Assembly (NCBI RefSeq): GCF_048403405.1
Contig: NZ_CP183129.1
Length of the DNA stretch: 64,000 bases
Reading direction: 5' to 3' (one strand)
From: Escherichia coli
GTDB lineage: Bacteria; Pseudomonadota; Gammaproteobacteria; Enterobacterales; Enterobacteriaceae
In this document: one piece after another, positions 1 to 52,865 of the stretch
Layout of the letters: each line of letters starts with the position of its first letter
Position numbering within the stretch: position 1 is the first letter of the stretch
Translations under genes and position numbers: made by a program
Notes under the pieces: generated by a model
What the model was told of the DNA's origin: nothing
Seen by the model: only the letters and a program-made list of their open reading frames with translations
Databases searched by the model: none

Positions 1-1134
1 ACAGGTGCATTTTCTCTTTTCTTATTAATTGTAAATAAAAAGCACAATTATAATAAAAATGTCATTATATTAATTCTTGGTTTACTTCTTTTGGGTGCAA
101 TGAACCTTATATGGTATGAATTTTATAAAACAGAAGATGTAGTATATAGAAATGCTTATCGAGGCTACCTTGAGTCTGGAAAACTATTAGTATTTAGCTC
201 GTTGACATTTTTATTACTAAGTAAAAATAAATTCAGGCAAAATGAAAAACTACATTTTATTTCAGCTATCTTAGTTCAAATAATCATGCTATGTAGAGCA
301 TATTATCAAGGGATATATTTGCATGCAGACCGCATTCCCCTCTCCGCCATGAATGGGAATATTGGTCAGATGGGGGCAGCGACTATTGCGGCTTATGTGA
401 TTACATTTACAACTTTATATTCTTCAATTGTATTCATAAAAATGCAATCGAAATATAAATGGTTTCTATTTTATGCTAACTTTGCTTTAAGCTTTGCAGC
501 AGTAATGATGACAGGAACGCGTGCGGCAATTTTCACATTCCCACTTATGATTATGGTCATATTATTTCTTCAGCATCGTGATCAAAAAGTGTTTTTATTT
601 AAAGGATTGAGTGGTGTTTTTATATTGCTACTTGCTTGTGGTTTGATATTTAATAAGGAAATTGATAGGCGAATTAATTCATTAAAAGCTGATGTTATTT
701 CATATGCTACAAAAAATAACAGTCAATCCTCGGTCGGAGCACGTTTTGCAATGGTTAATGCAGGAATTAAAGGAAGTCCTGATGGTTTTAATTGGCAATC
801 TCTTGAGCAGCGTGCTGAAAAGATAAAAGCATTAAGTGCAGAAAATAATATTTATAGTGGAGCTTTATTATTCCTTGATGTACATATGCATAACGAAATT
901 GTGGAATCTCTTTCCACGAAAGGAAAAATTGGTCTTCTTGTTCTTATTATGTTCTATGTTGCAATGATCTATTACTGTATACGAGAGAAAAAATATATAC
1001 TCTTGGTTTTCCCTGCTTCTATTATGTTATTTGGCATTAGTGATGTCATTACACATGCTAAACCAATACCGGCATCGTGGATTGTGTGCCTCTTCCTGTC
1101 TATATCGTTTTTGAGTAAAAATGAACCACAATAA
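1..1134 (+). CDS. waaL: O-antigen ligase WaaL, 5' end truncated by window edge
   Basis: Frame is open from base 1 with no stop before the listed TTG at 91; polytopic hydrophobic product; AT-rich; sits beside waaC where the ligase gene lies in waa clusters. Convergent with waaC, unlike K-12. Confidence 0.7.
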   Translation, partial: TGAFSLFLLIVNKKHNYNKNVIILILGLLLLGAMNLIWYEFYKTEDVVYRNAYRGYLESGKLLVFSSLTFLLLSKNKFRQNEKLHFISAILVQIIMLCRAYYQGIYLHADRIPLSAMNGNIGQMGAATIAAYVITFTTLYSSIVFIKMQSKYKWFLFYANFALSFAAVMMTGTRAAIFTFPLMIMVILFLQHRDQKVFLFKGLSGVFILLLACGLIFNKEIDRRINSLKADVISYATKNNSQSSVGARFAMVNAGIKGSPDGFNWQSLEQRAEKIKALSAENNIYSGALLFLDVHMHNEIVESLSTKGKIGLLVLIMFYVAMIYYCIREKKYILLVFPASIMLFGISDVITHAKPIPASWIVCLFLSISFLSKNEPQ

Positions 1135-1181
1135 TAAAAGCGTTGACTAAGTAAGTGGGTATAATGCCCACTTACTATTTA

Positions 1182-2141
1182 TTAAATTAATGTGATTTTT
1201 TTATAAACAGCCGCTGCTTCTAAATTATTTAAATTCATTAGCGGAGCCCTACAAACCACCTGATTCTTCCCATATCCGCCAATTAATCCCGGATCGGTTG
1301 GTCCATAAACCGTGATATTCGGTCTATCCAGTGCCGCCGTTAAATGGCTTAACCCCGTATCCACCGACACTACAAATTTAGCCCCGGCCAGTACGCGGGC
1401 AACGCCTTCCAGACTCATCTTCGGCAATACTTCAACATAAGCAAATCCTTCCGCCAGTCGTTTCGCCCGTTCTTCCTCATGCGGCGCGCCCCACGGAAGT
1501 TTAATCCGTATTCCTGAATCAGCCAGTAAACCAATCAATTCTCGCCAGTGTTCTTCCGGCCAGTGTTTATCATCACGGGTCGTCGCATGAAGAAATACGG
1601 CATATTCGCCAGCATCTGTAGGCAGGTTCGTCAGGAAATGTTGTGCGATAGCATAATCACCCTGGGTTTGCGGTTTGCTATAGCCCAAACTTTTGGCAAA
1701 CAGTTCGCGGGTGCGTTCTACGGCGTGCTGCTGTTTTGCAATATGATGCTTACGATTGTAAAACAGGCTGGCTAACGGTTCTCGAACGGTTTGCCAGTCC
1801 ATGCCATGCTTTACGCCATGCGCCAGACGCGTCACCAGCGCCGCGCTTTTTACCAGCCCCTGAGCGTCGATAACTGCGTCATAGTTCTCTGCTTGTAGCG
1901 CTTCACGAAACGCTTTGCGTTCAGCTTTTATGGGGGCCGAGAACCAGGCTTTACGCCAGCGACGTATTGCCACAGGAATAACTCGCTCAACGGCGGCGTG
2001 CCAGGAAGGAATCTGTGCGAACCCTTCTTCCACCACCCAGTCAAACTTAATCCCTGGGATTGCCTGCTGGGCATCAGTGAGTGCGGGCAGCGTATGGAGA
2101 ACATCGCCCATCGACGATGTTTTAACGATCATAACCCGCAT
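1182..2141 (-). CDS. waaC: ADP-heptose:LPS heptosyltransferase I
   Basis: 319 aa, family-9 heptosyltransferase; position in hldD-waaF-waaC operon. Confidence 0.95.
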   Translation of the reverse strand: MRVMIVKTSSMGDVLHTLPALTDAQQAIPGIKFDWVVEEGFAQIPSWHAAVERVIPVAIRRWRKAWFSAPIKAERKAFREALQAENYDAVIDAQGLVKSAALVTRLAHGVKHGMDWQTVREPLASLFYNRKHHIAKQQHAVERTRELFAKSLGYSKPQTQGDYAIAQHFLTNLPTDAGEYAVFLHATTRDDKHWPEEHWRELIGLLADSGIRIKLPWGAPHEEERAKRLAEGFAYVEVLPKMSLEGVARVLAGAKFVVSVDTGLSHLTAALDRPNITVYGPTDPGLIGGYGKNQVVCRAPLMNLNNLEAAAVYKKITLI

Positions 2142-2144
2142 CCG

Positions 2145-3191
2145 TCAGGCTTCCTCTTGTAACAATAGCGTGTTGAGTTCTTCCAGTACGCGCTGGGGAG
2201 TAATGTCGATCAAGCTCTGGTGATAACCCTCCGCAGCGTCACCTTTACGCACTTTGTGATAGCCGGTAATCAGACGGATCACGCGCGCTTTATGGGATAG
2301 CGGTGGTGTGAAGTCCGGGCTACTCGGACCATACAGGGCAACCAGCGGACGATTGAGCGCCGCCGCAACGTGCATCAGACCAGAATCGTTAGTGACAATG
2401 GCTTTACAGGCTGCAATCAGGATAACCGCTTGATCAAGCTGTGTTTCCCCCGCCAGGTTCCGGCACCATGCCTGCTGCTCGGTATTCAAAGCGGCAAGAA
2501 TCTCATTGCCCGCCTCATGATCTTTCGCCGAGCCAAACAGAACCACCTGATAACCTTCATCAATCAGCTGCTTTGCCAGTTCCGCATAGTGGTAGTGTGG
2601 CCAGCGTTTTGCCGGACCAAACTCCGCTCCGGGGCAAAAGCCAATCATCGGACGTTCTGATGAAAGCGAAAATTGATTACAGGTATATGATTTTTCACCT
2701 TCGCTCACCTGCAACTGCGGCCATAACAATGGTTGCGGCAGATCTTGTGCTGTGCGCATAACGCCTTTGTCATAGGCCAGCGCGACATAGCGTTCCACCA
2801 TTAGCGGCCAGGCTTCTTTATCGAGCACGCGTACATCGTTGAGTAAACCGTAGCGCATCTCGCCGCGCCAGCCGGTGCGATGAGGAATACCCGCGAAGAA
2901 AGGCACTAATGCGGACTTGAAGGAGTTGGGTAAGACGTAGGCGCGGTCGTAGCGCTTTTCACGCAGACTATGACCCAGTTTGCGGCGTTCGCCGATTTCC
3001 AGCGCTCCGTGACCGAGAGGCATAGGAATAGCTTCGTTAACTTCCGGCATCCGCGATAATAATGGACGGCACCATGCCGGTGCCATCACGTCGATTATCG
3101 CCTGGGGATAGCGCGCCTGGAGCGTGCGATAGAGACTTTGCGACATCATCATGTCGCCAACCCAAGACGGGCCGATCACCAGTATTTTCAT
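2145..3191 (-). CDS. waaF: ADP-heptose:LPS heptosyltransferase II
   Basis: 348 aa; starts MKILVIGPSWVGDMMM; 3 bp upstream of waaC. Confidence 0.95.
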   Translation of the reverse strand: MKILVIGPSWVGDMMMSQSLYRTLQARYPQAIIDVMAPAWCRPLLSRMPEVNEAIPMPLGHGALEIGERRKLGHSLREKRYDRAYVLPNSFKSALVPFFAGIPHRTGWRGEMRYGLLNDVRVLDKEAWPLMVERYVALAYDKGVMRTAQDLPQPLLWPQLQVSEGEKSYTCNQFSLSSERPMIGFCPGAEFGPAKRWPHYHYAELAKQLIDEGYQVVLFGSAKDHEAGNEILAALNTEQQAWCRNLAGETQLDQAVILIAACKAIVTNDSGLMHVAAALNRPLVALYGPSSPDFTPPLSHKARVIRLITGYHKVRKGDAAEGYHQSLIDITPQRVLEELNTLLLQEEA

Positions 3192-3200
3192 GCAGAGCTC

Positions 3201-4133
3201 TTATGCGTCGCGATTCAGCCAGGCCATGTATTCCGTTACACCTTCAGCAACGGTTTTGAACGGTTTATCGTAACCCGCCGCGCGCAGATTCGTCAGATCT
3301 GCCTGAGTGAACGCCTGATAGCGGCCTTTCAGTTTATCCGGGAACGGAATGTATTCGATCTGGCCTTTCTTGTGATAAGCAAGCGTTGCATCGGCTACAG
3401 CCTGGAAGGATTCCGCACGACCGGTGCCGAGGTTGAAGATGCCGGAAACGCCATTTTCCAGGAACCACAGGTTTACATCTGCCACGTCGCCCACATAGAC
3501 GAAGTCACGTTTGAAGTTCTCGCTACCTTCGAACAGCTTCGGTGATTCACCGTTATTAAGCTGGGTGTTGAGATGGAAAGCGACGCTCGCCATGCTGCCT
3601 TTATGGCCTTCACGCGGTCCATAAACGTTGAAATAGCGGAAGCCAACAATCTGCGAGTTCGCTTCTGGCAGGATTTGACGAACATATTCATCAAACAGGA
3701 ATTTTGAGTAACCGTAGACGTTCAACGGTTTTTCGTACTCGCGGGATTCAATAAAGTCGGAGGTGCGTCCGCCGTAAGTGGCTGCGGAAGAAGCGTACAG
3801 GAACGGGATTTCGCGCTCCAGACAGTAGTGCAGCAGCTCTTTGGAGTATTGATAGTTGTTATCCATCATATACTTGCCATCCCACTCGGTGGTGGAAGAG
3901 CACGCGCCTTCGTGGAAAATCGCTTCGACATCGCCGAACTCTTCGCCAGCCATAATCTGGATCAGGAAGTCTTCCTTATCCATATAGTCCGCGATATCCA
4001 GATCCACCAGGTTCACAAACTTGGTGCCGTCTTTCAGGTTGTCCACCACCAGAATATCGGTGATGCCTTTATCATTCAGGGCCTTAACGATGTTGCTGCC
4101 GATAAAGCCCGCGCCGCCGGTAACGATGATCAT
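3201..4133 (-). CDS. hldD: ADP-L-glycero-D-manno-heptose 6-epimerase
   Basis: 310 aa; N-terminal GGAGFIGSN Rossmann motif; first gene of the operon. Confidence 0.95.
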
Positions 4134-4346
4134 AACTGTAACCTTCGAATTATGGAGTCAGAGACAATCTCAGACACGAATGCTTCTATCATATCACTAC
4201 ACGGCGTTGGCTTCAGCCATTCGCCAAAAGTGAGATTGATGGACGTTATTTATCCTGAATTTTGCAGAAGTGTTAACGCGTCATCTCGTCGCGACCTATA
4301 AGTTTGGGTAATATGTGCTGGAATTTGCCCTGTCTGGAGAATCGCA

Positions 4347-5543
4347 ATGCGTGGAGAATTTTATCAGCAGTTAACCAACGATCTGGAAACCGCACGGGCG
4401 GAAGGGTTGTTTAAAGAAGAGCGCATTATTACGTCTGCGCAGCAAGCAGATATCACTGTGGCTGATGGAAGCCACGTCATTAACTTTTGTGCCAATAACT
4501 ATCTCGGACTGGCGAATCATCCGGATCTGATTGCGGCGGCAAAGGCGGGAATGGATTCTCACGGTTTCGGCATGGCTTCGGTGCGTTTTATTTGCGGCAC
4601 TCAGGACAGCCATAAAGAGCTTGAACAAAAACTGGCGGCCTTCCTGGGGATGGAAGATGCGATTCTCTACTCTTCCTGCTTTGATGCTAACGGTGGCCTG
4701 TTTGAAACGCTGTTGGGCGCGGAAGACGCCATTATCTCCGACGCACTGAACCACGCGTCTATTATTGATGGTGTGCGTCTGTGCAAAGCTAAACGCTATC
4801 GTTATGCCAACAACGATATGCAGGAGCTGGAAGCACGTCTGAAAGAAGCGCGTGAAGCCGGTGCGCGTCATGTGCTGATTGCCACCGATGGTGTGTTCTC
4901 AATGGACGGCGTGATTGCCAACCTGAAGGGCGTTTGCGATCTGGCAGATAAATACGATGCCCTGGTGATGGTAGACGACTCCCACGCGGTCGGTTTTGTC
5001 GGTGAAAATGGTCGTGGTTCCCATGAATACTGCGATGTGATGGGCCGGGTCGATATTATCACCGGTACGCTTGGTAAAGCGCTGGGCGGGGCTTCTGGTG
5101 GTTATACCGCGGCGCGCAAAGAAGTGGTTGAGTGGCTGCGCCAGCGTTCTCGTCCGTACCTGTTCTCCAACTCGCTGGCACCGGCCATTGTTGCCGCTTC
5201 CATCAAAGTGCTGGAGATGGTTGAAGCGGGTAGCGAGCTGCGTGACCGTCTGTGGGCGAACGCGCGTCAGTTCCGTGAGCAAATGTCGGCGGCGGGCTTT
5301 ACCCTGGCGGGAGCCGATCACGCCATTATTCCGGTCATGCTTGGCGATGCGGTAGTAGCGCAGAAATTTGCTCGTGAGCTGCAAAAAGAGGGGATTTACG
5401 TCACCGGTTTCTTCTATCCGGTCGTTCCGAAAGGTCAGGCGCGTATTCGTACCCAGATGTCTGCGGCGCATACCCCTGAGCAAATTACGCGTGCAGTAGA
5501 AGCATTCACGCGTATTGGTAAACAACTGGGCGTTATCGCCTGA
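4347..5543 (+). CDS. kbl: 2-amino-3-ketobutyrate CoA ligase
   Basis: 398 aa PLP-dependent acyltransferase; divergent from hldD; followed by tdh. Confidence 0.95.
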
Positions 5544-24874: not shown

Positions 24875-24917
24875 TATTGATGCTCTCTATTCCTTGATAT
24901 AAGCGCAGAAGCTGCAT

Positions 24918-25601
24918 TTATTTTTTGTTTTTTCGCTGCCGAGTTTCAGCAGGTTGAACAGTGTCGAACTGGAGATTGGCCATATTGATGGACAACTTCA
25001 GATACTTCAGGTTATTAGGCGAAACGCCTTTTAATGTCAGATTAATGTCTTGCCATTGACCAGGCATTAATTGCAGAGTGGAATTCAGGGTGGTGTTGAA
25101 AAGTAATTGTTGCCACTTTGCCAGAGCTTTGGCATCGGCGGGTCTTTCATTGCCCCATGTCGCATGAAAGCCAATATTTGATACGGGAACGCTTAAAAGA
25201 TTAACCAGCGAAATACGAATAACACTGCCATTTTCCACCGCATCAATAGCCAGCACCCGGCCTGCCAAACCGACCGATCCGTTATTTATAATGAAGTATT
25301 GTGTTTGTGCTGGGTTAAATTCTGTAAAGACAAATTCGTCCTGCTTGTCTTTAACCGCTTTCACCACGCCAGCGAGCGTCTTGGTACTATTTATGACAGT
25401 AGTTTGTTGTTTTTCAAAATGTTCTATCTTGCGCTTATCGAGTTCCTGCTGTTTCTCAAGCGCCTCAATTTTGCTTTTTTGCAACTCTTGCTGTGTAACG
25501 AGTTCGTCGACCTTACTCGCTTTTTCAATATAGTCACACCCTGCCAATAAGCAGAGAGGCACTATTATTAACACGCTTAACAGTGTTTTCTTTAGGTTCA
25601 T
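24918..25601 (-). CDS. SadB-like lipoprotein, putative autotransporter biogenesis helper
   Basis: 227 aa; signal peptide with lipobox LLAGC; coiled-coil-prone N-terminal region; stop 43 bp upstream of the autotransporter start, same strand. Confidence 0.65.
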   Translation of the reverse strand: MNLKKTLLSVLIIVPLCLLAGCDYIEKASKVDELVTQQELQKSKIEALEKQQELDKRKIEHFEKQQTTVINSTKTLAGVVKAVKDKQDEFVFTEFNPAQTQYFIINNGSVGLAGRVLAIDAVENGSVIRISLVNLLSVPVSNIGFHATWGNERPADAKALAKWQQLLFNTTLNSTLQLMPGQWQDINLTLKGVSPNNLKYLKLSINMANLQFDTVQPAETRQRKNKK

Positions 25602-33267: not shown

Positions 33268-33789
33268 TTATTCATCGATGCATTTTATAGAATCATCAAT
33301 GGCTACAATAGTACTATTAACTCTCCAATTTATATTTTTATTATCATTGCAAATATTAACTGAATCTATATCAATGATTTTTTTATTTTTATCTTTTATT
33401 TTGTTTACAGTTTCAATGCAATCAGCGACAAGTTGGTGTGGATTTAGATTCTTCAGATATGGTCTTATGATCTTTCCCTTGCTTAATAAATAGCATGTAT
33501 AGGATTCGGAAAGTCCAGCATCTATTTTGTACATCATTATTCTAGATAAGGATGTGAGAAATGCCTTGTTATCATTAGCAGCCATATATGCCAGTCCGAG
33601 TTCAGCCTCTGCGGCTTTACATGAAAAATAGCTAAGTGAACACGCTTTTCGTCCCTCTTGGGTACTGGCTGATATTAGTGCCCATAATATTGCCTTGTCT
33701 GCCAAATCCAACTCTCTCTGAAATTGGTTTACAGTAACTGCATTCGCAGAAATAGAGAAGAAAAGCACAATTGTTAATAACCTTGTCAT
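33268..33789 (-). CDS. Exported Cys-containing protein of unknown function (candidate orphan immunity protein)
   Basis: 173 aa; signal peptide with likely cleavage after ANA; 7 Cys; very AT-rich gene between the Rhs module and yibH. Confidence 0.5.
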   Translation of the reverse strand: MTRLLTIVLFFSISANAVTVNQFQRELDLADKAILWALISASTQEGRKACSLSYFSCKAAEAELGLAYMAANDNKAFLTSLSRIMMYKIDAGLSESYTCYLLSKGKIIRPYLKNLNPHQLVADCIETVNKIKDKNKKIIDIDSVNICNDNKNINWRVNSTIVAIDDSIKCIDE

Positions 33790-34157
33790 ATTTCTAGTCC
33801 GTCACTGTTAATGTGCTATCTGGCTCTGAAAATATTAGCTCATTTAATTTTTGCATGTCATTAGATGAACCAGTTATACAACCCTCGGAACAGAATCGAG
33901 GTCCTAAAGATGGACCAAAAGCGTTTAAACAACTATGTGTTAAAAATCCATCACGATTATACGTTTCTGTATTTGCTGACGGTACTAAACGTATACCATT
34001 AGGTTTTCTATTGGTTGCTCCAGGACTGTTAAGCAAGCCTCGTCCGGTTTGCTTCATTGAGTTCTCCACTTTAGACTATTGGACTATCTTTCAACATGGC
34101 ATCGCCTTAGTATACCGCTGGTTTTCCGCTCATTGTTAATTTTCTCTTTCGTTCATT

Positions 34158-34568
34158 TCACTTAATTTTCAGTTTTTTCCAAAAGTCAATATTCCCTTCT
34201 AATAAAATTTTTTCTATGGAATCTTCATTAATTTTATTATTAGAGCATATGACATTATCTTGAACGCCATATGACACCACCCCGTTTTTATCAATATAAT
34301 ATCTGTCTTTACCATCAATAATATAAATCCTAACATTTTTATCATCAAAATGGTAACACTCATTACTAGACCTGTTCAGTAACATTAATAACTTCTCACG
34401 ATTTATCTGTAATAATTTTTGTGCACCATCTTTTATTGCAAAATTTTCAATTTTACTTTTAGTGACAGGGGAATATGTTTGGATGCGAAAAGGCATCCTA
34501 TAATGGAAAACATCAGCTATACAGCAAGATGAAAAAAATACGGAAATAAAATACAGACATACTTTCAT
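34158..34568 (-). CDS. Putative exported immunity protein cognate to the Rhs C-terminal toxin
   Basis: 136 aa; hydrophobic N-terminus MKVCLYFISVFFSSCC; starts 57 bp after the rhs stop, same strand, with GGAG RBS; AT-rich like the rhs tip. Confidence 0.55.
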   Translation of the reverse strand: MKVCLYFISVFFSSCCIADVFHYRMPFRIQTYSPVTKSKIENFAIKDGAQKLLQINREKLLMLLNRSSNECYHFDDKNVRIYIIDGKDRYYIDKNGVVSYGVQDNVICSNNKINEDSIEKILLEGNIDFWKKLKIK

Positions 34569-34625
34569 ACCATCTCCTAAACTGGTGATATATTAAAAAC
34601 ATACCCAAAAGCAATATAAAAATGT

Positions 34626-37600
34626 TTAATATTTCATTCTTGCTGGCAAGCCCAACTCTTTACGAAATGGGTTTTCATATTTATCAACATTAGCCATCGA
34701 GTCAGTTCCATCGTCTTTCATTCCCTTTGCATGCCCCATTTCATGCGCAAGAACCACACTCAACAGAGTGGGTTTCATGGCACATGCTTTGTTTTTTCCT
34801 TGATATACACATGAGCTATGGTCGTTATCAATATCAATGTAAAAACTATATTCAGTATCATCGTAGCATGTTTGGTTTATGCCTTTTCTTAATCCTCTAA
34901 ATATATATTCATGCTCTGATGACTCTAATTCTTCTGTTATTTTATGTCCAAACTTTGTTTCTGCTACAGCTTTATATGCTTCTTTTAAAGTTTTTTGTGT
35001 ACTTTCATCTCCCTGAAAAGACACTTTTAACCCTAATGGATCGAAACCAGATACCGGATTCAACGGATACTGATAAAAATTCCATCCCCCCTTAAGCCCA
35101 ATCGGATCCTGAGTGATATACCGCCCCTGCAGCGGGTCATAATAGCGGTGGCGGTTGTAATAGAGGCCGGACTCCTCATCATACTGCTGACCCGGCAGGC
35201 GGATGAGCTGCTGCAGCTGGTGCGGGTTCTCTTCATTCAGCAGGTTGCCCCATTCATCGTATTCTGCGCACCATTCTGTTGCCCCTTCCGTGCTGACAAG
35301 CGCCAGCGGCAGGCCGCGATGGTCGCAGTGGTACAGGTGGATTTTTCGCGCCGGCGTGTACACCGGGTCCATCTGGTTTTGTATCTGCTCCACCGTCAGG
35401 CCGCACGATGCCAGCCAGCGGCGGCTTTCCTCACTCACCCGGTCAGCCAGGATTTCACTTTCCAGCCGGTCGAGCATCTGCACCAGCACCGGCGGGAACA
35501 CCACACTGCCACCGTCTTCACCGCCGGACTGCTGAAGCGCATCCGCCAGGCTGCGGCGCTGCGTTTTCGCCAGCTCACCGGTGGCAGTTTCAACTCTGAT
35601 GAGTGGCGTGAAGCTCCCCGGCTGATAAACCGTCTGGATGCGGGTTCTGTCGTTCTGTATTGTGGTCAGCCGGTCGCCGTCCCAGCCGTACCAGGTCACT
35701 TCCGGTTTCCGTGACAGCGACATCCAGCCCGTCAGGTCCCGTTCACGCCGCCACACCCGTTTTGCCACCCTGCGGCCCAGCGGGTCGTAAAGATAGCGAC
35801 TTTCGACCAGCGGCTCTGCATATTGTGTCCGCGTGTAGTGCACCAGCCGGTGCCGGCTGTCGTAATGGTACCGGTGAGTCCGCTCATCATCCGTACGGAT
35901 AACCCCTTCCGGGATGAGGTCGGTTTTCTCCGTCAGCCTGCCGTGACGGTCATACCGGTAAAGATAGTGCGCGTCACGGGCGATACGGTTATCCGGCCAC
36001 ATGCTGAGGGTGCTGTCCGGGTGCAGCTCCGGGTCGGGCAGGCGGTTACCTGCCGGGTCCGTGGCATACGGGATGCGGATATCCAGATTCGCTGCGGTGG
36101 TGTGGACGCCGGTCAGCCTGCCGGTGTCGCTGTAGCTGTAACTCCGGGTCTGGCGCGGGCTGCTGATGCGGATGAGTTCGCCGTTGTCGTTCCAGGTGTA
36201 ATCGCGGTCATACTGCAGGCTGTTCAGGTGCTGGCTCTGTAACTGCCCGGCAGAGGTGTAAGCGGTGGTGAGTTCATAACGGCCGAAGCTGCGCAGCGTT
36301 TCCCGGTGCAGGCGGTCGCGGGTGAAATCCACCAGCGGTGTGTCGCCGAGTTTCATGCCTGACAGCCAGCCGCTGCCGTAGGTCAGCCATTCCACGGCGG
36401 GCAGGCTGTCCGGTATACAGCGGTTCGCCAGTCCCTGCGCGTTGTACGCATGTCTGGTTTCATGCTGCCAGAGCAGTGCTTCCGTCTGCGGGTGATGCAC
36501 CGTCTGGCGCTCACCGGTCAGGCGGCCTTTCTCATCATACCCGTAATGCACCGTCACCCGGTGGCCTTCGCTGAGATGGCTGATGCCTGTCAGCCAGCCG
36601 CGTTCGTCATACTGCCACTGCTCTGCAGGTTCACCCTTCACGGTGCGGTGAGTGAGGCGGTCTGCTTCGTCATAGTGCCAGTGGGTGACCAGCCCCTCAT
36701 CCTCGCTGCGGATAAGTTTACCGGTCAGGTCGTGGTGATAACGCTGTGTGCGGCCGTCAAAGCCGGTTTCCTGTATCAGCCGGTCAAGTACATCGTAACG
36801 GAAGGTGGTGTGGCTGCCGTTTTCACTGGTCAGGCGGATGACCCGCCCGGCAGCATCGTATTCCATACTGCGCGTCAGACCGCCCTGCGTGGTACGAACG
36901 GGCTTTCCCCACGCATCGTACTGTGTCCCGTTTCTGCTGCCGTCCGGGGCAATGACGGCGGTCAGGTCACCGGCGGCGTTGTATTCATACCGCGTTTCAT
37001 GGCCCTGCGTGTCTTTCACCGCAATTAACTGTCCACGGCTGTCGTATGCGCGGTACTGACTCAGCCCTTCCTCGCGGTGCACCGCCGTCACCTGACCAAA
37101 ACGGTCATGGTCATAACGGGTTACATAACCGGAACAGTCAGTGACGGTCAGCAACTGACCGTAACGGCTCCATGTCATGGTTTTCCGGCTGCCGGTGGCA
37201 TCTTCCGTTGCGCAGGGTAAGTCACTGTGTGGATTATCATAACGGTAGCGGGTGATATCGCCGTTGTGTGCGGTTTCCTGAATCAGACGGCCGGATTCAT
37301 CATATTTGCGGCGCAACTCCAGCCCGTCAGTCCCGGTGGCTGACGTTAACTGGTTGTGGTGGTTATAGTAAAATGCCGATGCCCTGCCATCCGGTGTGGT
37401 GATGCGCGTGATGAGTCCCGTCACCACATCCGGGCTGTACTCAGTCGTCCGGCCTGCGGCATCCGTCTGTGCCTTAAGCCCGCCCACCGCGTCAAACTGA
37501 CTCTGCGTGACGCTGCCGTCCGCGTGTTCCTTTTTCACCACCCGCTTCAGCCCGCCTTCGCCCTGCGTGTGCAGCACTTCACGGCGGTCCAGACTGTCGG

Positions 37601-38756
37601 TGATGGTGATGCGGTCTTTCTCATACTGATACGTGTAGCTTAAGCCTGCCGGGTTTAGCTGTTCTGTCACCCGCCCGTCGCTGTCGTAACGGTAACGGAT
37701 ATCCGGCCGGCCCGTGTGACGGTGCGCCACCATCCGGCCCCGGTATTTATCATCGTAAGTAAAGCTGCGCACCTGTGTATTGCTGCGGTCATACACCGCC
37801 GCCAGTTCGCCGCGTGGCGTCCAGCCATAGCGCACCAGCGGCGCGGCAGGTAAATTCTCCGGGTATTCCGGGTCGTGCGTCAGCCACACGGCAGACAGAC
37901 GGATGCCGTTGTCCCGGCCATATTCGGTGTAACCCGGCAGGGTATCAGGAAAAACGGACGGTTCCGCCCCGCCGGAAGAGGCCTGCTGCCGGGCTTCTTC
38001 TGCCCGCTGCGCCTGCGTGGTCAGTACCAGCCGGAAGTGACGCCCGGCACCATCCGTCACGCCGGTGATTTCGCCGCCAGCCTCACGGTGGAACGTCTGT
38101 GTGCGCCCGAAGCGGTCCACCAGCCCGGTCAGTACCCGGTACGGCGGCAGCGGCGCGGGCAGCACCTCATCCGCCTCCGGCACCTGCTCACACCAGCCGA
38201 GTACCCACCACGGCCCCTGCGGACTGTTTGTCGCCAGATAACGATGCGGACTCAGGCGGAGTTCTTCCGGCAGCGCCTGCCAGAGTGCGGCCAGCCGGTG
38301 ACCTTCATCCAGTTTCAGGACACCGCCACGCACCAGCCAGAGTGATTCGCTGCGGCTGTAACCGTCCTCACCGGGAAACAGGTGCTCAAAATACAGGCTC
38401 CTGCCGCCGTTATCACTGAGTATCAGTGTGTTATCGCGCAGCTGTAGGCGGATATCCGCAGGCATTTTCCAGCCGGGGCCGAGGCTCCCCACCGGCGCGG
38501 GCGTTTTTGTCCGGTAACTGCTGTAGGTGCGGGAGAGGATGAACGGCAGCGGGCCGGGCAGGGCAAGGTCGGTTTCGCCGGGAAGGACCTTCGCACCGAG
38601 CAGCGGATTGACCGGATGGCCGGACGTCACCCCGCCGGGGCACACCGAACAGGCCACGCCGGTGGGGGCACCAATACGTACCCCGGCAGAACCCTGAACA
38701 ATGCTACCGCCATACTGCGTCATGTCGCCCTGACGCGCCGCCGGTTTTCCGCTCAT
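34626..38756 (-). CDS. Rhs-family polymorphic toxin with PAAR-like N-terminus and HExxH metallopeptidase-like C-terminal tip
   Basis: 1376 aa; Gly-rich PAAR-like N-terminal region; many YD repeats; core ends ...DPIGL...DPLGL; 133-aa tail contains [20 protein letters not shown] (HEMGH coded at 34728-34745); GC-rich core switches to AT-rich coding at ~35030. Confidence 0.85.
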
Positions 38757-46034: not shown

Positions 46035-46102
46035 GCCTGATGCGACGCTTACGCGTTTTATCATGCCTACGGGGACCTGACCGTAGGCCGGATAAGGCGT
46101 AC
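46035..46102. repeat. REP/BIME palindromic units, the second split by IS insertion
   Basis: GCCTGATGCGACGCTTACGCG...ATGCCTAC, then GTAGGCCGGATAAGGCGT whose partner half ACACGCCGCATCCGGC resumes at 47537. Confidence 0.8.
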
Positions 46103-46144
46103 TGAACTGCACCCCAAATGTTGGACATAATCTGACATCTGAAG

Positions 46145-46675
46145 GTGCAGTTTATGAAACATTCATTTGAAGTAAAAATTGCCGCTGTAAATCATTACCT
46201 GGCCGGTCATGCAGGCATCATTTCTACGGCAAAACTCTTTCAACTTTCTCACACCAGCCTCTCACACTGGATTAATCTTTTTCTTCTTCACGGTCCTCGG
46301 GCACTGGATTGCAGACACAGGCGTAGCTATTCTCCTGAAGATAAACTTTGCGTGGTTCTTTATGCTCTCGGGCATTCTGAGTCTCTACCCCGGGTAGCTG
46401 CCCGGTTTAACATTCCCAGCCACAACACGGTTAAAAACTGGATAAAAGGCTACCGCAAATCTGGTAATGAGGCCTTTATCAGGCGCAGGAAGGAGAAAAG
46501 CATGACCCGTTCTGATGATACCCATGAAAACGAAGCAAACATGACGCCGGAAGAGATGAAGAATGAGCTGCGTTATCTTCGCGCAGAAAATGCATATCTG
46601 AAAGCCATGCAGGAGCATCTCCTGGAAAAAAAGCGCCAGGAGCTGGAGAAAAAACGAAAGTCATCCGGAGCCTGA
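46145..46675 (+). CDS. IS transposase OrfA (HTH)
   Basis: 176 aa; helix-turn-helix N-terminus and leucine-zipper-like C-terminus typical of IS3-family OrfA. Confidence 0.85.
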   Translation: MQFMKHSFEVKIAAVNHYLAGHAGIISTAKLFQLSHTSLSHWINLFLLHGPRALDCRHRRSYSPEDKLCVVLYALGHSESLPRVAARFNIPSHNTVKNWIKGYRKSGNEAFIRRRKEKSMTRSDDTHENEANMTPEEMKNELRYLRAENAYLKAMQEHLLEKKRQELEKKRKSSGA

Positions 46676-46779
46676 GGTGCGGACACTGCCAGTCTGACCT
46701 GTTAAAGGCTGCAGGGCTGGCCAGAAGCACGCTGTACTACCAGCTGTCACTGCAGAAGGCTAAGGACAAGTATGCTGAT

Positions 46780-47535
<756 letters not shown>

Positions 47536-51339: not shown

Positions 51340-52116
<777 letters not shown>

Positions 52117-52220
52117 ATCAGCATACTTGTCCTTAGCCTTCTGCAGTGACAGCTGGTAGTACAGCGTGCTTCTGGCCAGCCCTGCAGCCTTTAACAGGTC
52201 AGACTGGCAGTGTCCGCACC

Positions 52221-52751
52221 TCAGGCTCCGGATGACTTTCGTTTTTTCTCCAGCTCCTGGCGCTTTTTTTCCAGGAGATGCTCCTGCATGGCTTTCAGAT
52301 ATGCATTTTCTGCGCGAAGATAACGCAGCTCATTCTTCATCTCTTCCGGCGTCATGTTTGCTTCGTTTTCATGGGTATCATCAGAACGGGTCATGCTTTT
52401 CTCCTTCCTGCGCCTGATAAAGGCCTCATTACCAGATTTGCGGTAGCCTTTTATCCAGTTTTTAACCGTGTTGTGGCTGGGAATGTTAAACCGGGCAGCT
52501 ACCCGGGGTAGAGACTCAGAATGCCCGAGAGCATAAAGAACCACGCAAAGTTTATCTTCAGGAGAATAGCTACGCCTGTGTCTGCAATCCAGTGCCCGAG
52601 GACCGTGAAGAAGAAAAAGATTAATCCAGTGTGAGAGGCTGGTGTGAGAAAGTTGAAAGAGTTTTGCCGTAGAAATGATGCCTGCATGACCGGCCAGGTA
52701 ATGATTTACAGCGGCAATTTTTACTTCAAATGAATGTTTCATAAACTGCAC
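52221..52751 (-). CDS. IS transposase OrfA, copy B
   Basis: Identical 176-aa product to copy A. Confidence 0.85.
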   Translation of the reverse strand: MQFMKHSFEVKIAAVNHYLAGHAGIISTAKLFQLSHTSLSHWINLFLLHGPRALDCRHRRSYSPEDKLCVVLYALGHSESLPRVAARFNIPSHNTVKNWIKGYRKSGNEAFIRRRKEKSMTRSDDTHENEANMTPEEMKNELRYLRAENAYLKAMQEHLLEKKRQELEKKRKSSGA

Positions 52752-52793
52752 CTTCAGATGTCAGATTATGTCCAACATTTGGGGTGCAGTTCA

Positions 52794-52865
52794 GTTAAGC
52801 GTCGCATCAGGCAATGTGCACCCTACGGTGGATGCGGCGCGAGTGCCTTATCCAACCTACGGATG
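52794..52865. repeat. REP/BIME palindromic units flanking IS copy B
   Basis: AGCGTCGCATCAGGC ... GGATGCGGCGCGAGTGCCTTATCCAACCTACGG; overlaps the 3' end of the glycoside hydrolase gene. Confidence 0.7.

What the first reader, a model, noticed from the sequence alone, without database searches (positions are those of the whole stretch)
34158..38756. Rhs polymorphic toxin with a short HExxH metallopeptidase-like tip and an exported candidate immunity protein
The 1376-aa protein has a Gly-rich PAAR-like N-terminus, the YD-repeat shell and the ...DPIGL...DPLGL core boundary. Its 133-aa tail then carries [20 protein letters not shown], an HExxHxxG zincin-type signature with acidic residues positioned as a possible third ligand. 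The coding DNA switches from GC-rich core to AT-rich tip at the boundary, as expected for a swapped-in toxin domain. The next gene, 57 bp downstream with its own RBS, encodes a 136-aa protein with a hydrophobic signal-like N-terminus, which suggests the toxin acts in the target-cell periplasm, for example on peptidoglycan or an envelope protein. No vgrG or T6SS genes are adjacent (yibF is upstream), as for K-12 rhsA. I do not recognise this tip or immunity protein as a described Rhs toxin family.
Basis: partly seen in the sequence, partly recalled or inferred. Interest (0 to 1): 0.8.

Follow-up and report, generated by a model that had tools for sequence, protein, structure and literature searches.

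The report
Rhs toxin with NleD-like protease tip
An E. coli Rhs "contact weapon" protein ends in a small zinc protease of the NleD/botulinum-toxin type and is followed by an exported antidote protein. The pair is a relative of one already tested in Salmonella, so it is an ordinary member of a known but poorly understood toxin class.

Summary
A 1376-aa Rhs gene (34626-38756, minus strand) has a 133-aa AT-rich tip carrying HEMGH. A 136-aa gene with an RBS and a signal-like N-terminus follows 57 bp downstream, at the E. coli rhsA locus, with no T6SS genes nearby.

The claim that the tip is undescribed does not hold. The tip is a compact member of Peptidase_M91 / Tox-HopH1 (the NleD clade), which Zhang et al. 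defined as an RHS-linked toxin domain in 2012. Its confident model is most like botulinum-neurotoxin light chains and GtgA. It has the conserved set HExxH, E-N and RxxY.

The pair is homologous to Salmonella Dublin SED_RS06335/06340 (tip about 59% identical, partner about 49%). That module was shown in 2022 to contribute to interbacterial competition. An E. coli Rhs-M91 was noted in a 2024 preprint.

What I add:
- The downstream protein belongs to an unannotated family with no Pfam match and no PDB fold match.
- That family follows this toxin domain across distant phyla.
- All 15 partners examined carry export signals, which argues for action in the periplasm and against the recent "anti-eukaryotic" label.

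The substrate, the third zinc ligand and the delivery route remain untested. Verdict: new member of a known kind, modest interest.

The parts
34626..38756 (-). rhs gene, 1376 aa (rhsA-locus allele)
   Evidence: ORF. NCBIfam RHS_core scores 2610 bits over residues 1-1243. Pfam finds DUF6531, 10 or more RHS_repeat matches and RHS.
38622..38756 (-). N-terminal Gly-rich segment (residues 1-45) with a literal PAAR at residues 5-8; a putative, truncated PAAR-like spike adaptor
   Evidence: Read directly from the sequence. There is no Pfam PAAR hit. The S. Dublin PAAR-RHS-M91 effector has the same [10 protein letters not shown] start.
38388..38621 (-). DUF6531 domain (residues 46-123)
   Evidence: Pfam PF20148, i-E 1.4e-17.
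35028..35261 (-). Rhs-associated core (residues 1166-1243), ending in DPIGL...DPLGL; the predicted self-cleavage boundary that releases the tip
   Evidence: TIGR03696 matches model positions 1-76 of 76, E 1.4e-22. That this is a cleavage site is inferred from established Rhs biology and was not tested.
34629..35027 (-). Toxin tip, 133 aa (residues 1244-1376): compact M91/Tox-HopH1 (NleD-like) zinc metallopeptidase domain
34731..34745 (-). HEMGH (H1338, E1339, H1342): two zinc ligands and the catalytic base
   Evidence: Invariant columns H95, E96 and H99 in alignment A1. They lie on model helix 89-100.
34671..34676 (-). E1361-N1362 ('YEN'): the [DE]N motif of Tox-HopH1; the Glu is the likely third zinc ligand
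   Evidence: N119 is invariant and E118 is conserved in at least 90% of sequences. The motif lies on helix 112-124. It aligns to SEN of NleD. M91/BoNT third-ligand Glu is described in PMC6367388.
34629..34640 (-). R1373-M-K-Y1376: RxxY active-site motif at the very C-terminus
   Evidence: R130 is invariant and Y133 is conserved in at least 90% of sequences. NleD has RRTSY at the matching place. BoNT R363-x-x-Y366 is described. 44 of 94 homologues end exactly at this Tyr.
34569..34625 (-). 57-nt spacer with RBS AGGAG (34574-34578)
   Evidence: Sequence read.
34158..34568 (-). Cognate immunity-type gene, 136 aa, exported; member of an unannotated family that follows this toxin domain in many lineages
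   Evidence: Homologous partners follow the toxin domain in Salmonella, Citrobacter, Hafnia, Rahnella, Haliea, Methylobacter, Bdellovibrionaceae, Acidobacteria and Fimbriimonas. The search found 91 members, all 'hypothetical protein' with no Pfam domain. AF2 pLDDT 86. S. Dublin homologue SED_RS06340 protects in competition.
34515..34568 (-). Signal-type N-terminus of the immunity protein (MKVCLYFISVFFSSCCIA). Cleavage after CIA, or lipidation at Cys15, is undecided.
   Evidence: Hydropathy and lipobox-like FSSC. pLDDT is 56-67 for residues 1-20.
33794..34069 (-). Orphan toxin remnant (91-aa ORF) with an L,D-transpeptidase-type H...SxGC motif
   Evidence: Weak Pfam Tlde1_dom match, i-E 0.0013, model positions 66-107 of 120. 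Sequence read.
33268..33789 (-). Orphan Imm57-family immunity gene (173 aa, signal peptide), starting 4 nt after the remnant
   Evidence: RefSeq product name for the identical gene. Zhang et al. pair Imm57 with Tox-LD-peptidase.

Best explanation
This is an rhsA-locus allele of an Rhs polymorphic antibacterial toxin.

Proposed mechanism:
1. The YD-repeat shell (residues 1-1243) encloses a 133-aa C-terminal tip. The tip is released by self-cleavage at the DPLGL boundary (inferred from established Rhs biology).
2. The tip is a minimal Peptidase_M91 / Tox-HopH1 zinc endopeptidase, the same clade as the T3SS effector NleD, with a botulinum-light-chain-like zincin fold.
3. H1338 and H1342 bind zinc and E1339 is the catalytic base. 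E1361 of the YEN helix is the probable third ligand. R1373 and Y1376 (RxxY) are the probable transition-state stabilisers.
4. After contact-dependent delivery, most likely on a T6SS spike (inferred), the tip acts in the periplasm of a neighbouring Gram-negative cell. There it cuts an unidentified envelope protein. A specific protein, rather than peptidoglycan, is my guess, because its characterised structural relatives (BoNT light chains, NleD, GtgA, NleC) are site-specific protein endopeptidases.
5. The producer is protected by the 136-aa product of the next gene. That protein is exported to the periplasm and is presumed to bind and block the protease.

Status of each step:
- Shown here: the gene anatomy, the family membership, the fold, the conserved catalytic set, the conserved toxin-partner synteny and the export signals.
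- Shown by others for a homologue: a contribution to interbacterial competition, and protection by the partner.
- Inferred: zinc proteolysis, periplasmic site of action, T6SS delivery and the nature of the substrate.
For: Anatomy.

M91 membership:
- Pfam PF14891 hits the tip in two collinear pieces (model positions 6-113 and 155-176 of 176).
- 27 of 49 family members hit at E<=1e-3 and 43 of 49 at E<=0.1, best 1e-8.
- The family HMM against NleD scores 22.7 bits in the same two pieces. hhalign gives 83% probability.
- NleD ends ...SENKFHEEIGMPRRTSY; the family consensus is NENPxRxELGxPxRTxY.
- NCBI names the Hafnia homologue 'M91 family zinc metallopeptidase'.
- Zhang et al. 2012 define Tox-HopH1 by 'HExxH, [DE]N' with RHS repeats.

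Rhs-tip usage: 45 of 54 homologues with upstream sequence have a DPxGL-type boundary. AFDB neighbours are nearly all RHS-core proteins.

Cognate partner:
- Homologous small proteins directly follow the domain in Salmonella (49% identity), Citrobacter, Hafnia, Rahnella and a food metagenome.

Export: 15 of 15 downstream partners, including three unrelated families, have an N-terminal hydrophobic or lipobox segment and no other membrane-type segment.

Experiment on a homologue: in S. Dublin, prey lacking both SED_RS06335 and SED_RS06340 was recovered 2.4-fold less against a wild-type attacker, while prey lacking only the effector was unaffected (PMC8867033). The primer arms show this is the same tip and partner family.

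T6SS link elsewhere: a Salmonella tip cassette sits beside a tssM-like gene. Tox-HopH1 is among the most frequent Salmonella T6SS effectors.

Maintenance: the pair is intact and at least 99% identical in 180 of 5426 complete E. coli genomes.
Against: - No biochemical evidence exists for zinc binding, proteolysis or a substrate in any member of this Rhs-tip branch.
- The S. Dublin effect is small (2.4-fold), and secretion through a T6SS was not shown there.
- Pfam finds no PAAR domain in this protein, and no vgrG or T6SS gene lies within the 64-kb neighbourhood. Delivery in this strain is therefore unproven.
- The tip's own Pfam score is marginal (i-E about 1e-3).
- Export signals were judged by hydropathy and motif only, because no dedicated predictor was available.
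- The toxin domain has no conserved cysteine pair that would mark an oxidising compartment: 30 of 49 members have one Cys.
- A 2026 survey classes Tox-HopH1 T6SS effectors as anti-eukaryotic.
- D1348, in the HExxHxxGxxD register, remains an alternative third ligand.
Confidence: 0.68

Rival explanations
1. The tip is an anti-eukaryotic effector like NleD. It is injected into host or predator cells, where it cleaves a signalling protein such as a MAP kinase. The downstream gene is not an immunity gene.
For: - The tip is homologous to NleD, which cleaves JNK and p38 (PMC6367388).
- The 2026 Salmonella survey lists Tox-HopH1.st as 'Anti-eukaryotic' and associates it with the i1 T6SS subtype.
- Zhang et al. 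found no immunity family for Tox-HopH1.
Against: - A homologous exported partner follows the domain in free-living, non-host-associated lineages: Methylobacter, Haliea, Acidobacteria and Fimbriimonas.
- 15 of 15 partners carry export signals.
- The S. Dublin E/I deletion is sensitised to its wild-type sibling.
- The 'anti-eukaryotic' label appears to rest on homology, because no experiment is cited in the passages read.
- Dual (trans-kingdom) activity is not excluded.
Confidence: 0.1
2. The protease acts in the cytoplasm of target bacteria. The partner is an inner-membrane-anchored protein that neutralises it at the membrane or before export.
For: - The S. Dublin partner was predicted as '1 TM' rather than as a signal peptide.
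- Many Rhs tips are cytoplasmic nucleases.
- The toxin domain has no conserved disulfide pair.
Against: - With a short positively charged N-terminus followed by a single hydrophobic segment, the folded domain of the partner would face the periplasm whether or not it is cleaved.
- Several distant members have clear lipoboxes, such as IGGC and LSAC.
- Partners from three unrelated families are also exported.
- Enterobacterial partners keep a Cys pair in the mature part.
Confidence: 0.1
3. In this strain the locus is a stored or silent cassette. The Rhs protein is not delivered, because there is no PAAR domain, no adjacent vgrG, and possibly no T6SS. What selection maintains is mainly the immunity gene, as protection against attackers that carry the same tip.
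For: - No Pfam PAAR hit and no T6SS genes in the neighbourhood.
- From my own knowledge, K-12 rhsA sits at the same place in a strain without a T6SS.
- An orphan remnant plus an Imm57 gene lie just downstream, showing that the locus accumulates immunity modules.
- S. Enteritidis keeps such modules despite degraded T6SS clusters.
Against: - The full 4.1-kb ORF is intact, and the tip and partner are at least 99% identical in all 180 carrier genomes, with no truncated copies seen.
- The S. Dublin effector, described as PAAR-RHS, has the same [10 protein letters not shown] start.
- This rival concerns activity in one strain. It does not change what the genes encode.
Confidence: 0.12

Closest known systems
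[quoted passage not shown]
   Same: - Same architecture and the same [11 protein letters not shown]-terminus.
- The tip is of the same family. The published primer arm encodes MGIPPRMKY*** and is identical to the Salmonella and Citrobacter tips, which are 59-62% identical to this one.
- The partner is of the same family, 49% identical.
- That module contributes to interbacterial competition, and the partner protects.
   Different: - This locus is at rhsA (yibF-yibH) and not inside a T6SS island.
- The tip and partner are diverged alleles, so cross-immunity is not assured.
- The S. Dublin partner is cut short to 110 aa by a stop codon.
- Nothing has been tested for the E. coli allele.
Peptidase_M91 / Tox-HopH1: NleD (EPEC/EHEC), HopH1, XopG
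   Same: - HExxH plus [DE]N, and the C-terminal G-x-P-x-R-x-x-Y module.
- The N-terminal strand-helix 'T..G...LE.S' module.
- Matches to the Pfam and family HMMs.
- Zhang et al. already list RHS-linked versions.
   Different: - The domain is 133 aa, against about 190 aa in NleD. The segment between the HExxH helix and the EN helix is 18 residues here and about 45 in NleD.
- It is fused to an Rhs shell rather than being a free T3SS effector.
- It is paired with an exported partner, which NleD lacks.
- The target is presumably bacterial, not host MAP kinases.
Clostridial neurotoxin light chains (M27) and the GtgA/NleC effector proteases
   Different: - Sequence identity is only 11-17%.
- The tip lacks the large BoNT insertions that grip SNARE substrates.
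- There is no translocation or receptor domain.
- It works like these enzymes but is not a member of their families.
P. aeruginosa VgrG2b C-terminal metallopeptidase / PA0261 (PMC6899460)
   Same: Functional analogue: a T6SS-delivered zinc metallopeptidase that is toxic in the bacterial periplasm, is neutralised by a periplasmic partner encoded just downstream, and has an unknown substrate.
   Different: - It belongs to a different family, the DUF4157 thermolysin-like gluzincins.
- It is carried on VgrG, not on Rhs.
- Its immunity protein is unrelated.
E. coli Rhs-MPTase4 (Tox-MPTase4) effectors and the STEC O22:H8 'Rhs-Peptidase M91' (bioRxiv 10.1101/2024.03.05.583533)
   Same: These are E. 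coli Rhs proteins with zincin tips. The preprint reports an RhsA with a C-terminal M91 domain, followed by a hypothetical protein it could not assign.
   Different: - MPTase4 is a separate zincin family. No Tox-MPTase family appeared among the Pfam hits of the tip or its relatives.
- The STEC copy lies next to vgrG and is split by a stop codon.
- I could not compare its sequence with this one.

Membership tests
Rhs / YD-repeat polymorphic toxin | YD/RHS repeats forming the shell | tested here: met
   TIGR01643 matches 10 stretches, E 4e-38, and RHS_core scores 2610 bits. Pfam RHS_repeat matches 10 or more times.
Rhs / YD-repeat polymorphic toxin | Rhs-associated core ending in PxxxxDPxGL, followed by a variable tip with a compositional break | tested here: met
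   TIGR03696 covers residues 1166-1243 in full. GC drops from 0.62 to 0.35 at the boundary. Only 180 of 5426 genomes share this tip, while 3877 share the adjacent core.
Rhs / YD-repeat polymorphic toxin | Cognate immunity gene directly downstream | tested here: met
   The partner family is conserved next to the toxin domain in at least 12 loci across phyla. Protection has been shown only for the S. Dublin homologue.
T6SS-delivered PAAR-Rhs effector | N-terminal PAAR domain | tested here: not met
   No Pfam PAAR hit at E<=10. Only a 45-residue Gly-rich segment with one literal PAAR motif is present. The homologous S. Dublin protein with the same start is called PAAR-RHS by its authors, so a truncated PAAR below detection is possible.
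T6SS-delivered PAAR-Rhs effector | Genetic linkage to vgrG, a chaperone or a T6SS cluster | tested here: not met
   None lies within the neighbourhood. Relatives in Salmonella are linked to such genes. Whether the genome has a T6SS elsewhere was not tested.
Peptidase_M91 / Tox-HopH1 | HExxH motif on the active-site helix | tested here: met
   HEMGH is present, and these positions are invariant in A1. They lie on helix 89-100 of the model.
Peptidase_M91 / Tox-HopH1 | Second signature [DE]N (Zhang et al. 2012) | tested here: met
   E118-N119 ('YEN'): N is invariant and E is conserved in at least 90% of sequences. It aligns to SEN of NleD.
Peptidase_M91 / Tox-HopH1 | Significant match to the family profile (PF14891) | tested here: inconclusive
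   For this sequence alone the match is marginal: i-E 9e-4 (20.0 bits) plus a second piece of 11.5 bits. At family level it is met: 27 of 49 members at E<=1e-3, best 1e-8. NCBI names the 61%-identical homologue M91. Pfam's gathering score was not available to me.
Peptidase_M91 / Tox-HopH1 | BoNT-like zincin fold with a third-ligand Glu and RxxY | tested here: met
Peptidase_M91 / Tox-HopH1 | Zinc-dependent endopeptidase activity | not testable with these tools
   This needs biochemistry.
Metzincins (HExxHxxGxxH/D plus Met-turn) | Fixed HExxHxxGxx[HD] register and a metzincin fold | tested here: not met
VgrG2b-type DUF4157 metallopeptidase effectors | Match to DUF4157/eCIS_core and a thermolysin-like fold | tested here: not met
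Known immunity families (Pfam Imm*, protease inhibitors) | Profile or fold match of the 136-aa protein | tested here: not met

The most novel reading that the evidence does not exclude
The NleD/botulinum-type (M91) protease fold, known from toxins that cut eukaryotic signalling or SNARE proteins, also exists as a widespread antibacterial toxin that acts in the periplasm. This Rhs-tip branch, found from Enterobacteriaceae to Acidobacteria, Bdellovibrionota and Armatimonadota, is everywhere paired with an exported immunity protein of a previously unnamed family with no solved-structure relative. It would attack an envelope protein conserved across diderm bacteria. That would overturn the current 'anti-eukaryotic' label for Tox-HopH1 T6SS effectors and could point to a new essential envelope target.
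Probability: 0.5. Interest if true: 0.55.

Novelty: new member of a known kind. Interest (0 to 1): 0.3.

Why it matters
As a locus it is ordinary. It is one more rhsA allele carrying a toxin/immunity cassette of a class catalogued in 2012, tested genetically in Salmonella in 2022 and noted in E. coli in 2024.

What is worth keeping is the open biology of that class:
- Nobody has identified the substrate or the compartment of action for M91-type Rhs tips.
- The literature disagrees on the target: anti-eukaryotic, peptidoglycan hydrolase, or cytoplasmic.
- No immunity family has been named.

The cross-phylum pairing with an exported partner family found here gives a concrete and inexpensive hypothesis to test: periplasmic action on a conserved envelope protein. 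The E. coli pair is a convenient model for that test. If it holds, a botulinum/NleD-like protease scaffold would join the list of envelope-targeting antibacterial effectors, and its substrate could reveal a vulnerable envelope component.

Tried and rejected
1. Metzincin or snapalysin reading (HExxHxxGxxD with D1348 as ligand). PDB sequence hits to adamalysins cover only the motif. The fold search prefers BoNT/GtgA, and the spacing is not conserved in the family. I kept this only as a minority possibility for the third ligand.
2. Membership of the VgrG2b family, as one paper implies. Rejected, because VgrG2b is DUF4157 and thermolysin-like and does not match by profile or fold.
3. Single-sequence and word-index searches with the 136-aa protein found only E. 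coli and E. albertii, and Pfam, NCBIfam and PADLOC found nothing. The family became visible only by reading the genes downstream of toxin homologues.
4. The first attempt at a genome-wide locus scan failed because the 49-sequence alignment was too diverse. A 9-sequence subset worked.
5. Looking for a conserved disulfide pair in the toxin domain as a marker of periplasmic action was uninformative.
6. The fold search of the immunity model gave no informative match.
7. PADLOC on the orphan remnant and Imm57 gave nothing.
8. hhalign against a single NleD sequence aligned only the N-terminal module. The HMM search recovered both ends.
9. I could not measure ligand geometry or model the toxin-immunity complex.

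Full report
**1. The observation**

One runs 34626..38756 and encodes 1376 aa. The other runs 34158..34568 and encodes 136 aa. They are separated by 57 nt, and an AGGAG lies 5 nt before the second ATG.

NCBIfam's RHS_core model covers residues 1-1243 (2610 bits), and the Rhs-associated core model covers residues 1166-1243 completely. The conserved core therefore ends at ...DPIGL...DPLGL(1243), and the variable tip is residues 1244-1376 (window 34629..35027). GC content falls from about 0.62 to about 0.35 at that point.

The flanking genes are yibF, selA and selB on one side and yibH, yibI and mtlA on the other. This is the E. coli rhsA position. No vgrG or T6SS gene is annotated anywhere in the collinear reference stretch that corresponds to the window.

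One detail is weaker than stated. Pfam finds DUF6531 (residues 46-123), many RHS repeats and the RHS domain, but no PAAR domain even at E<=10. The 'PAAR-like' N-terminus is a 45-residue Gly-rich segment with a literal PAAR at residues 5-8.

**2. What the tip is**

Pfam matches the 133-aa tail weakly to Peptidase_M91, the NleD 'effector protein' family, in two collinear pieces that span nearly the whole model: positions 6-113 and 155-176 of 176, with i-E about 1e-3.

An exhaustive HMMER search of 1.8 billion representative proteins found 104 relatives at E<=1e-3. In a 49-sequence alignment, H95, E96, H99, N119 and R130 (tail numbering) are invariant. G27, G77, G98, D105, G107, E118, P120 and Y133 are conserved in at least 90% of sequences.

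Scanned one by one, 27 of the 49 sequences hit PF14891 at E<=1e-3 and 43 at E<=0.1, with a best value of 1e-8. No other family comes close.

I fetched a genuine NleD from E. coli O157 Sakai. It ends ...HELLH...SENKFHEEIGMPRRTSY, against the family consensus HExGH...NENPxRxELGxPxRTxY. The family HMM matches NleD in the same two collinear modules at 22.7 bits, and hhalign gives 83% probability. NCBI names the 61%-identical Hafnia homologue 'M91 family zinc metallopeptidase'.

Zhang et al. (2012) defined this toxin class as Tox-HopH1. Its signature is 'HExxH, [DE]N', it is associated with RHS repeats and several secretion systems, and no immunity family is listed for it. The tip meets both signature elements.

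**3. Fold and active site**

With the 49-sequence alignment, AlphaFold2 gives a confident model: mean pLDDT 96.3 and pTM 0.89.

This fits published work that M91 is the peptidase family closest to BoNT light chains, and that both share HExxH, a third-ligand Glu, and an RxxY pair that refines the active site (PMC6367388).

In the tip, H1338 and H1342 lie on helix 89-100, E1361-N1362 lie on helix 112-124, and R1373-x-x-Y1376 form the C-terminus. 44 of 94 homologues end exactly at that Tyr.

It corresponds to D1348, which is nearly invariant and sits in an HExxHxxGxxD register that weakly aligns to adamalysins. About half the family has one extra residue between the second His and that Asp, and the fold is not metzincin-like. 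I therefore favour E1361.

**4. The downstream protein**

On its own the 136-aa protein is opaque:
- It has no Pfam match at E<=10 and no NCBIfam match.
- A word-indexed search finds only E. coli and E. albertii relatives.

Reading the genes downstream of toxin-domain homologues changed the picture. Homologous proteins directly follow the domain in:
- a food metagenome, 43% identity
- Rahnella, 30% identity
- Citrobacter youngae and Hafnia alvei
- Salmonella enterica, 49% identity

More distant but recognisable homologues follow it in Haliea, Methylobacter, a gammaproteobacterial MAG, Bdellovibrionaceae, Acidobacteria and Fimbriimonas.

An HMM built only from the six enterobacterial sequences recovers these at 4e-5 to 1.4, even with the database size set to one million. 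There were in fact only nine candidates.

All 12 family members examined start with a hydrophobic signal-type or lipobox N-terminus and have no later membrane-type segment. So do the three unrelated proteins that occupy the same position in other loci. No dedicated signal-peptide predictor was available, so this rests on hydropathy and motifs. Residues 1-19 of the window's protein are also the only low-confidence part of the model.

**5. What is already known about this pair**

A 2022 paper on Salmonella Dublin describes SED_RS06335, a 'PAAR-RHS-Peptidase_M91' protein in the SPI-19 T6SS island, and the small gene SED_RS06340 after it. Prey lacking both genes were recovered 2.4-fold less when mixed with the wild type. 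Prey lacking only the effector were unaffected. The authors concluded that the two genes form an effector/immunity pair, but secretion through the T6SS was not shown (PMC8867033).

The paper's published recombineering arms let me place that pair:
- The effector's 5' arm encodes [10 protein letters not shown], the same start as the Rhs protein here.
- Its 3' arm encodes MGIPPRMKY*** and matches the Salmonella (L021) and Citrobacter (L006) tips 40/40. These tips are 59-62% identical to the window's tip.
- The immunity arm encodes RIYIYEDNH* and matches the Salmonella partner gene 39/40. The single difference creates a premature stop in S. Dublin.

Other publications bear on the same class:
- A 2026 survey lists Tox-HopH1 among the most frequent Salmonella T6SS effectors, but labels it 'anti-eukaryotic'.

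**6. Mechanism and rivals**

The best-supported reading has four parts:
- It is an Rhs antibacterial toxin whose encapsulated M91-type zinc endopeptidase tip is released at the DPLGL boundary.
- It is delivered by cell contact, probably on a T6SS spike.
- It acts in the periplasm of the target.
- The exported 136-aa partner blocks it in the producer.

My confidence differs by step:
- about 0.9 that the tip is an M91-clade zincin
- about 0.85 that the two genes are a cognate toxin/immunity pair
- about 0.65 that the site of action is the periplasm
- about 0.6 that delivery in this strain is by T6SS
- low for the kind of substrate

For the substrate I lean towards a specific envelope protein rather than peptidoglycan, because all characterised structural relatives are site-specific protein endopeptidases.

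The rivals are:
- An NleD-like anti-eukaryotic role. It is weakened by the conserved exported partner in free-living lineages and by the Salmonella sibling-competition result.
- A cytoplasmic site of action. It is weakened by the topology that the partners' N-termini imply.
- A silent, undeliverable cassette kept mainly for its immunity gene. This is possible for this strain, but the 4.1-kb ORF and the pair are intact and at least 99% identical in all 180 of 5426 complete E. coli genomes that carry them.

P. aeruginosa VgrG2b/PA0261 is the best-studied functional analogue. It is a T6SS metallopeptidase that is toxic in the periplasm, has a periplasmic immunity protein and has an unknown substrate. 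It belongs to a different family, DUF4157.

**7. Verdict**

The locus is a new member of a known kind.

The parts that appear not to be in the searchable literature are:
- the breadth and uniform export of the partner family
- the absence of any fold relative for that partner
- the explicit HExxH / E-N / RxxY assignment for the Rhs-tip branch

Together these argue for periplasmic, antibacterial action and against the 'anti-eukaryotic' label. That is a useful, testable refinement rather than a surprise. Interest 0.3.

Noticed in passing
window 33794-34069 (-) and 33268-33789 (-): A 91-aa ORF with an L,D-transpeptidase-type H...SxGC motif (weak Pfam Tlde1_dom hit, i-E 0.0013) ends 4 nt before a signal-peptide gene that RefSeq names 'Imm57 family immunity protein'. 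This looks like an orphan Tlde1-like toxin remnant with its immunity gene, stacked downstream of the main rhs pair.
   Followed up: partly
window 46102-47535 and 51361-52794: Two copies of about 1.43 kb of one IS3-family element lie in opposite orientations, flanking the yiaW-yiaT region. Both are absent from the otherwise collinear reference CP042899, and each is inserted inside REP-like palindromes. From memory this resembles the behaviour of IS1397; I did not test that.
   Followed up: partly
L021 (Salmonella OX345625) 4540-4913; primer arms in PMC8867033: The S. Dublin immunity gene SED_RS06340 carries a premature stop (RIYIYEDNH*, TAA where relatives have GAA). The stop removes the conserved YFIDxxG strands, yet the paper reports protection. 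Either the N-terminal half is enough, or the modest 2.4-fold effect reflects partial immunity.
   Followed up: partly
literature (PMC8867033 versus PMC6899460): The S. Dublin paper calls the VgrG2b C-terminal domain an M91 peptidase. The original VgrG2b paper classes it as a DUF4157 thermolysin-like gluzincin, and it does not match this tip by profile or fold.
   Followed up: yes
L021 and H17 (OX345625.1, OX345181.1): Two Salmonella records of about 5 kb, filed as plasmids, carry a tssM/icmF-like gene next to an orphan rhs tip and its immunity gene. They are probably chromosomal T6SS-island fragments rather than plasmids.
   Followed up: partly
toxin-domain family (P0008-P0111): 44 of 94 homologues end exactly at the conserved Tyr of the RxxY motif, so the free C-terminus sits at the active site. 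Most of the rest carry 1-26 extra residues (one has 32 and one 139); the longer tails are often of the type ...VPxIxWVPGTK. The significance is unknown.
   Followed up: no
window 34626-38756 versus RefSeq WP_072617383.1: The window's Rhs protein is 4 codons shorter (1376 against 1380 aa) than the RefSeq protein of the reference strain, although the tip DNA is 100% identical. There is a 12-nt indel somewhere in the core.
   Followed up: no
L002 (food metagenome contig) 399-4281: This is an array of orphan rhs tip cassettes: TseH with Imm58, two further core-end fragments with small downstream genes, and then the M91 tip with its partner. It illustrates how these tips are stored in tandem.
   Followed up: no
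window about 19600-25200: A YadA-like trimeric autotransporter adhesin gene of about 5.5 kb has internal repeats (self-matches at 80-90% identity). The reference strain has an ISEc12 (IS21-family) insertion beside it that is missing from the window.
   Followed up: no
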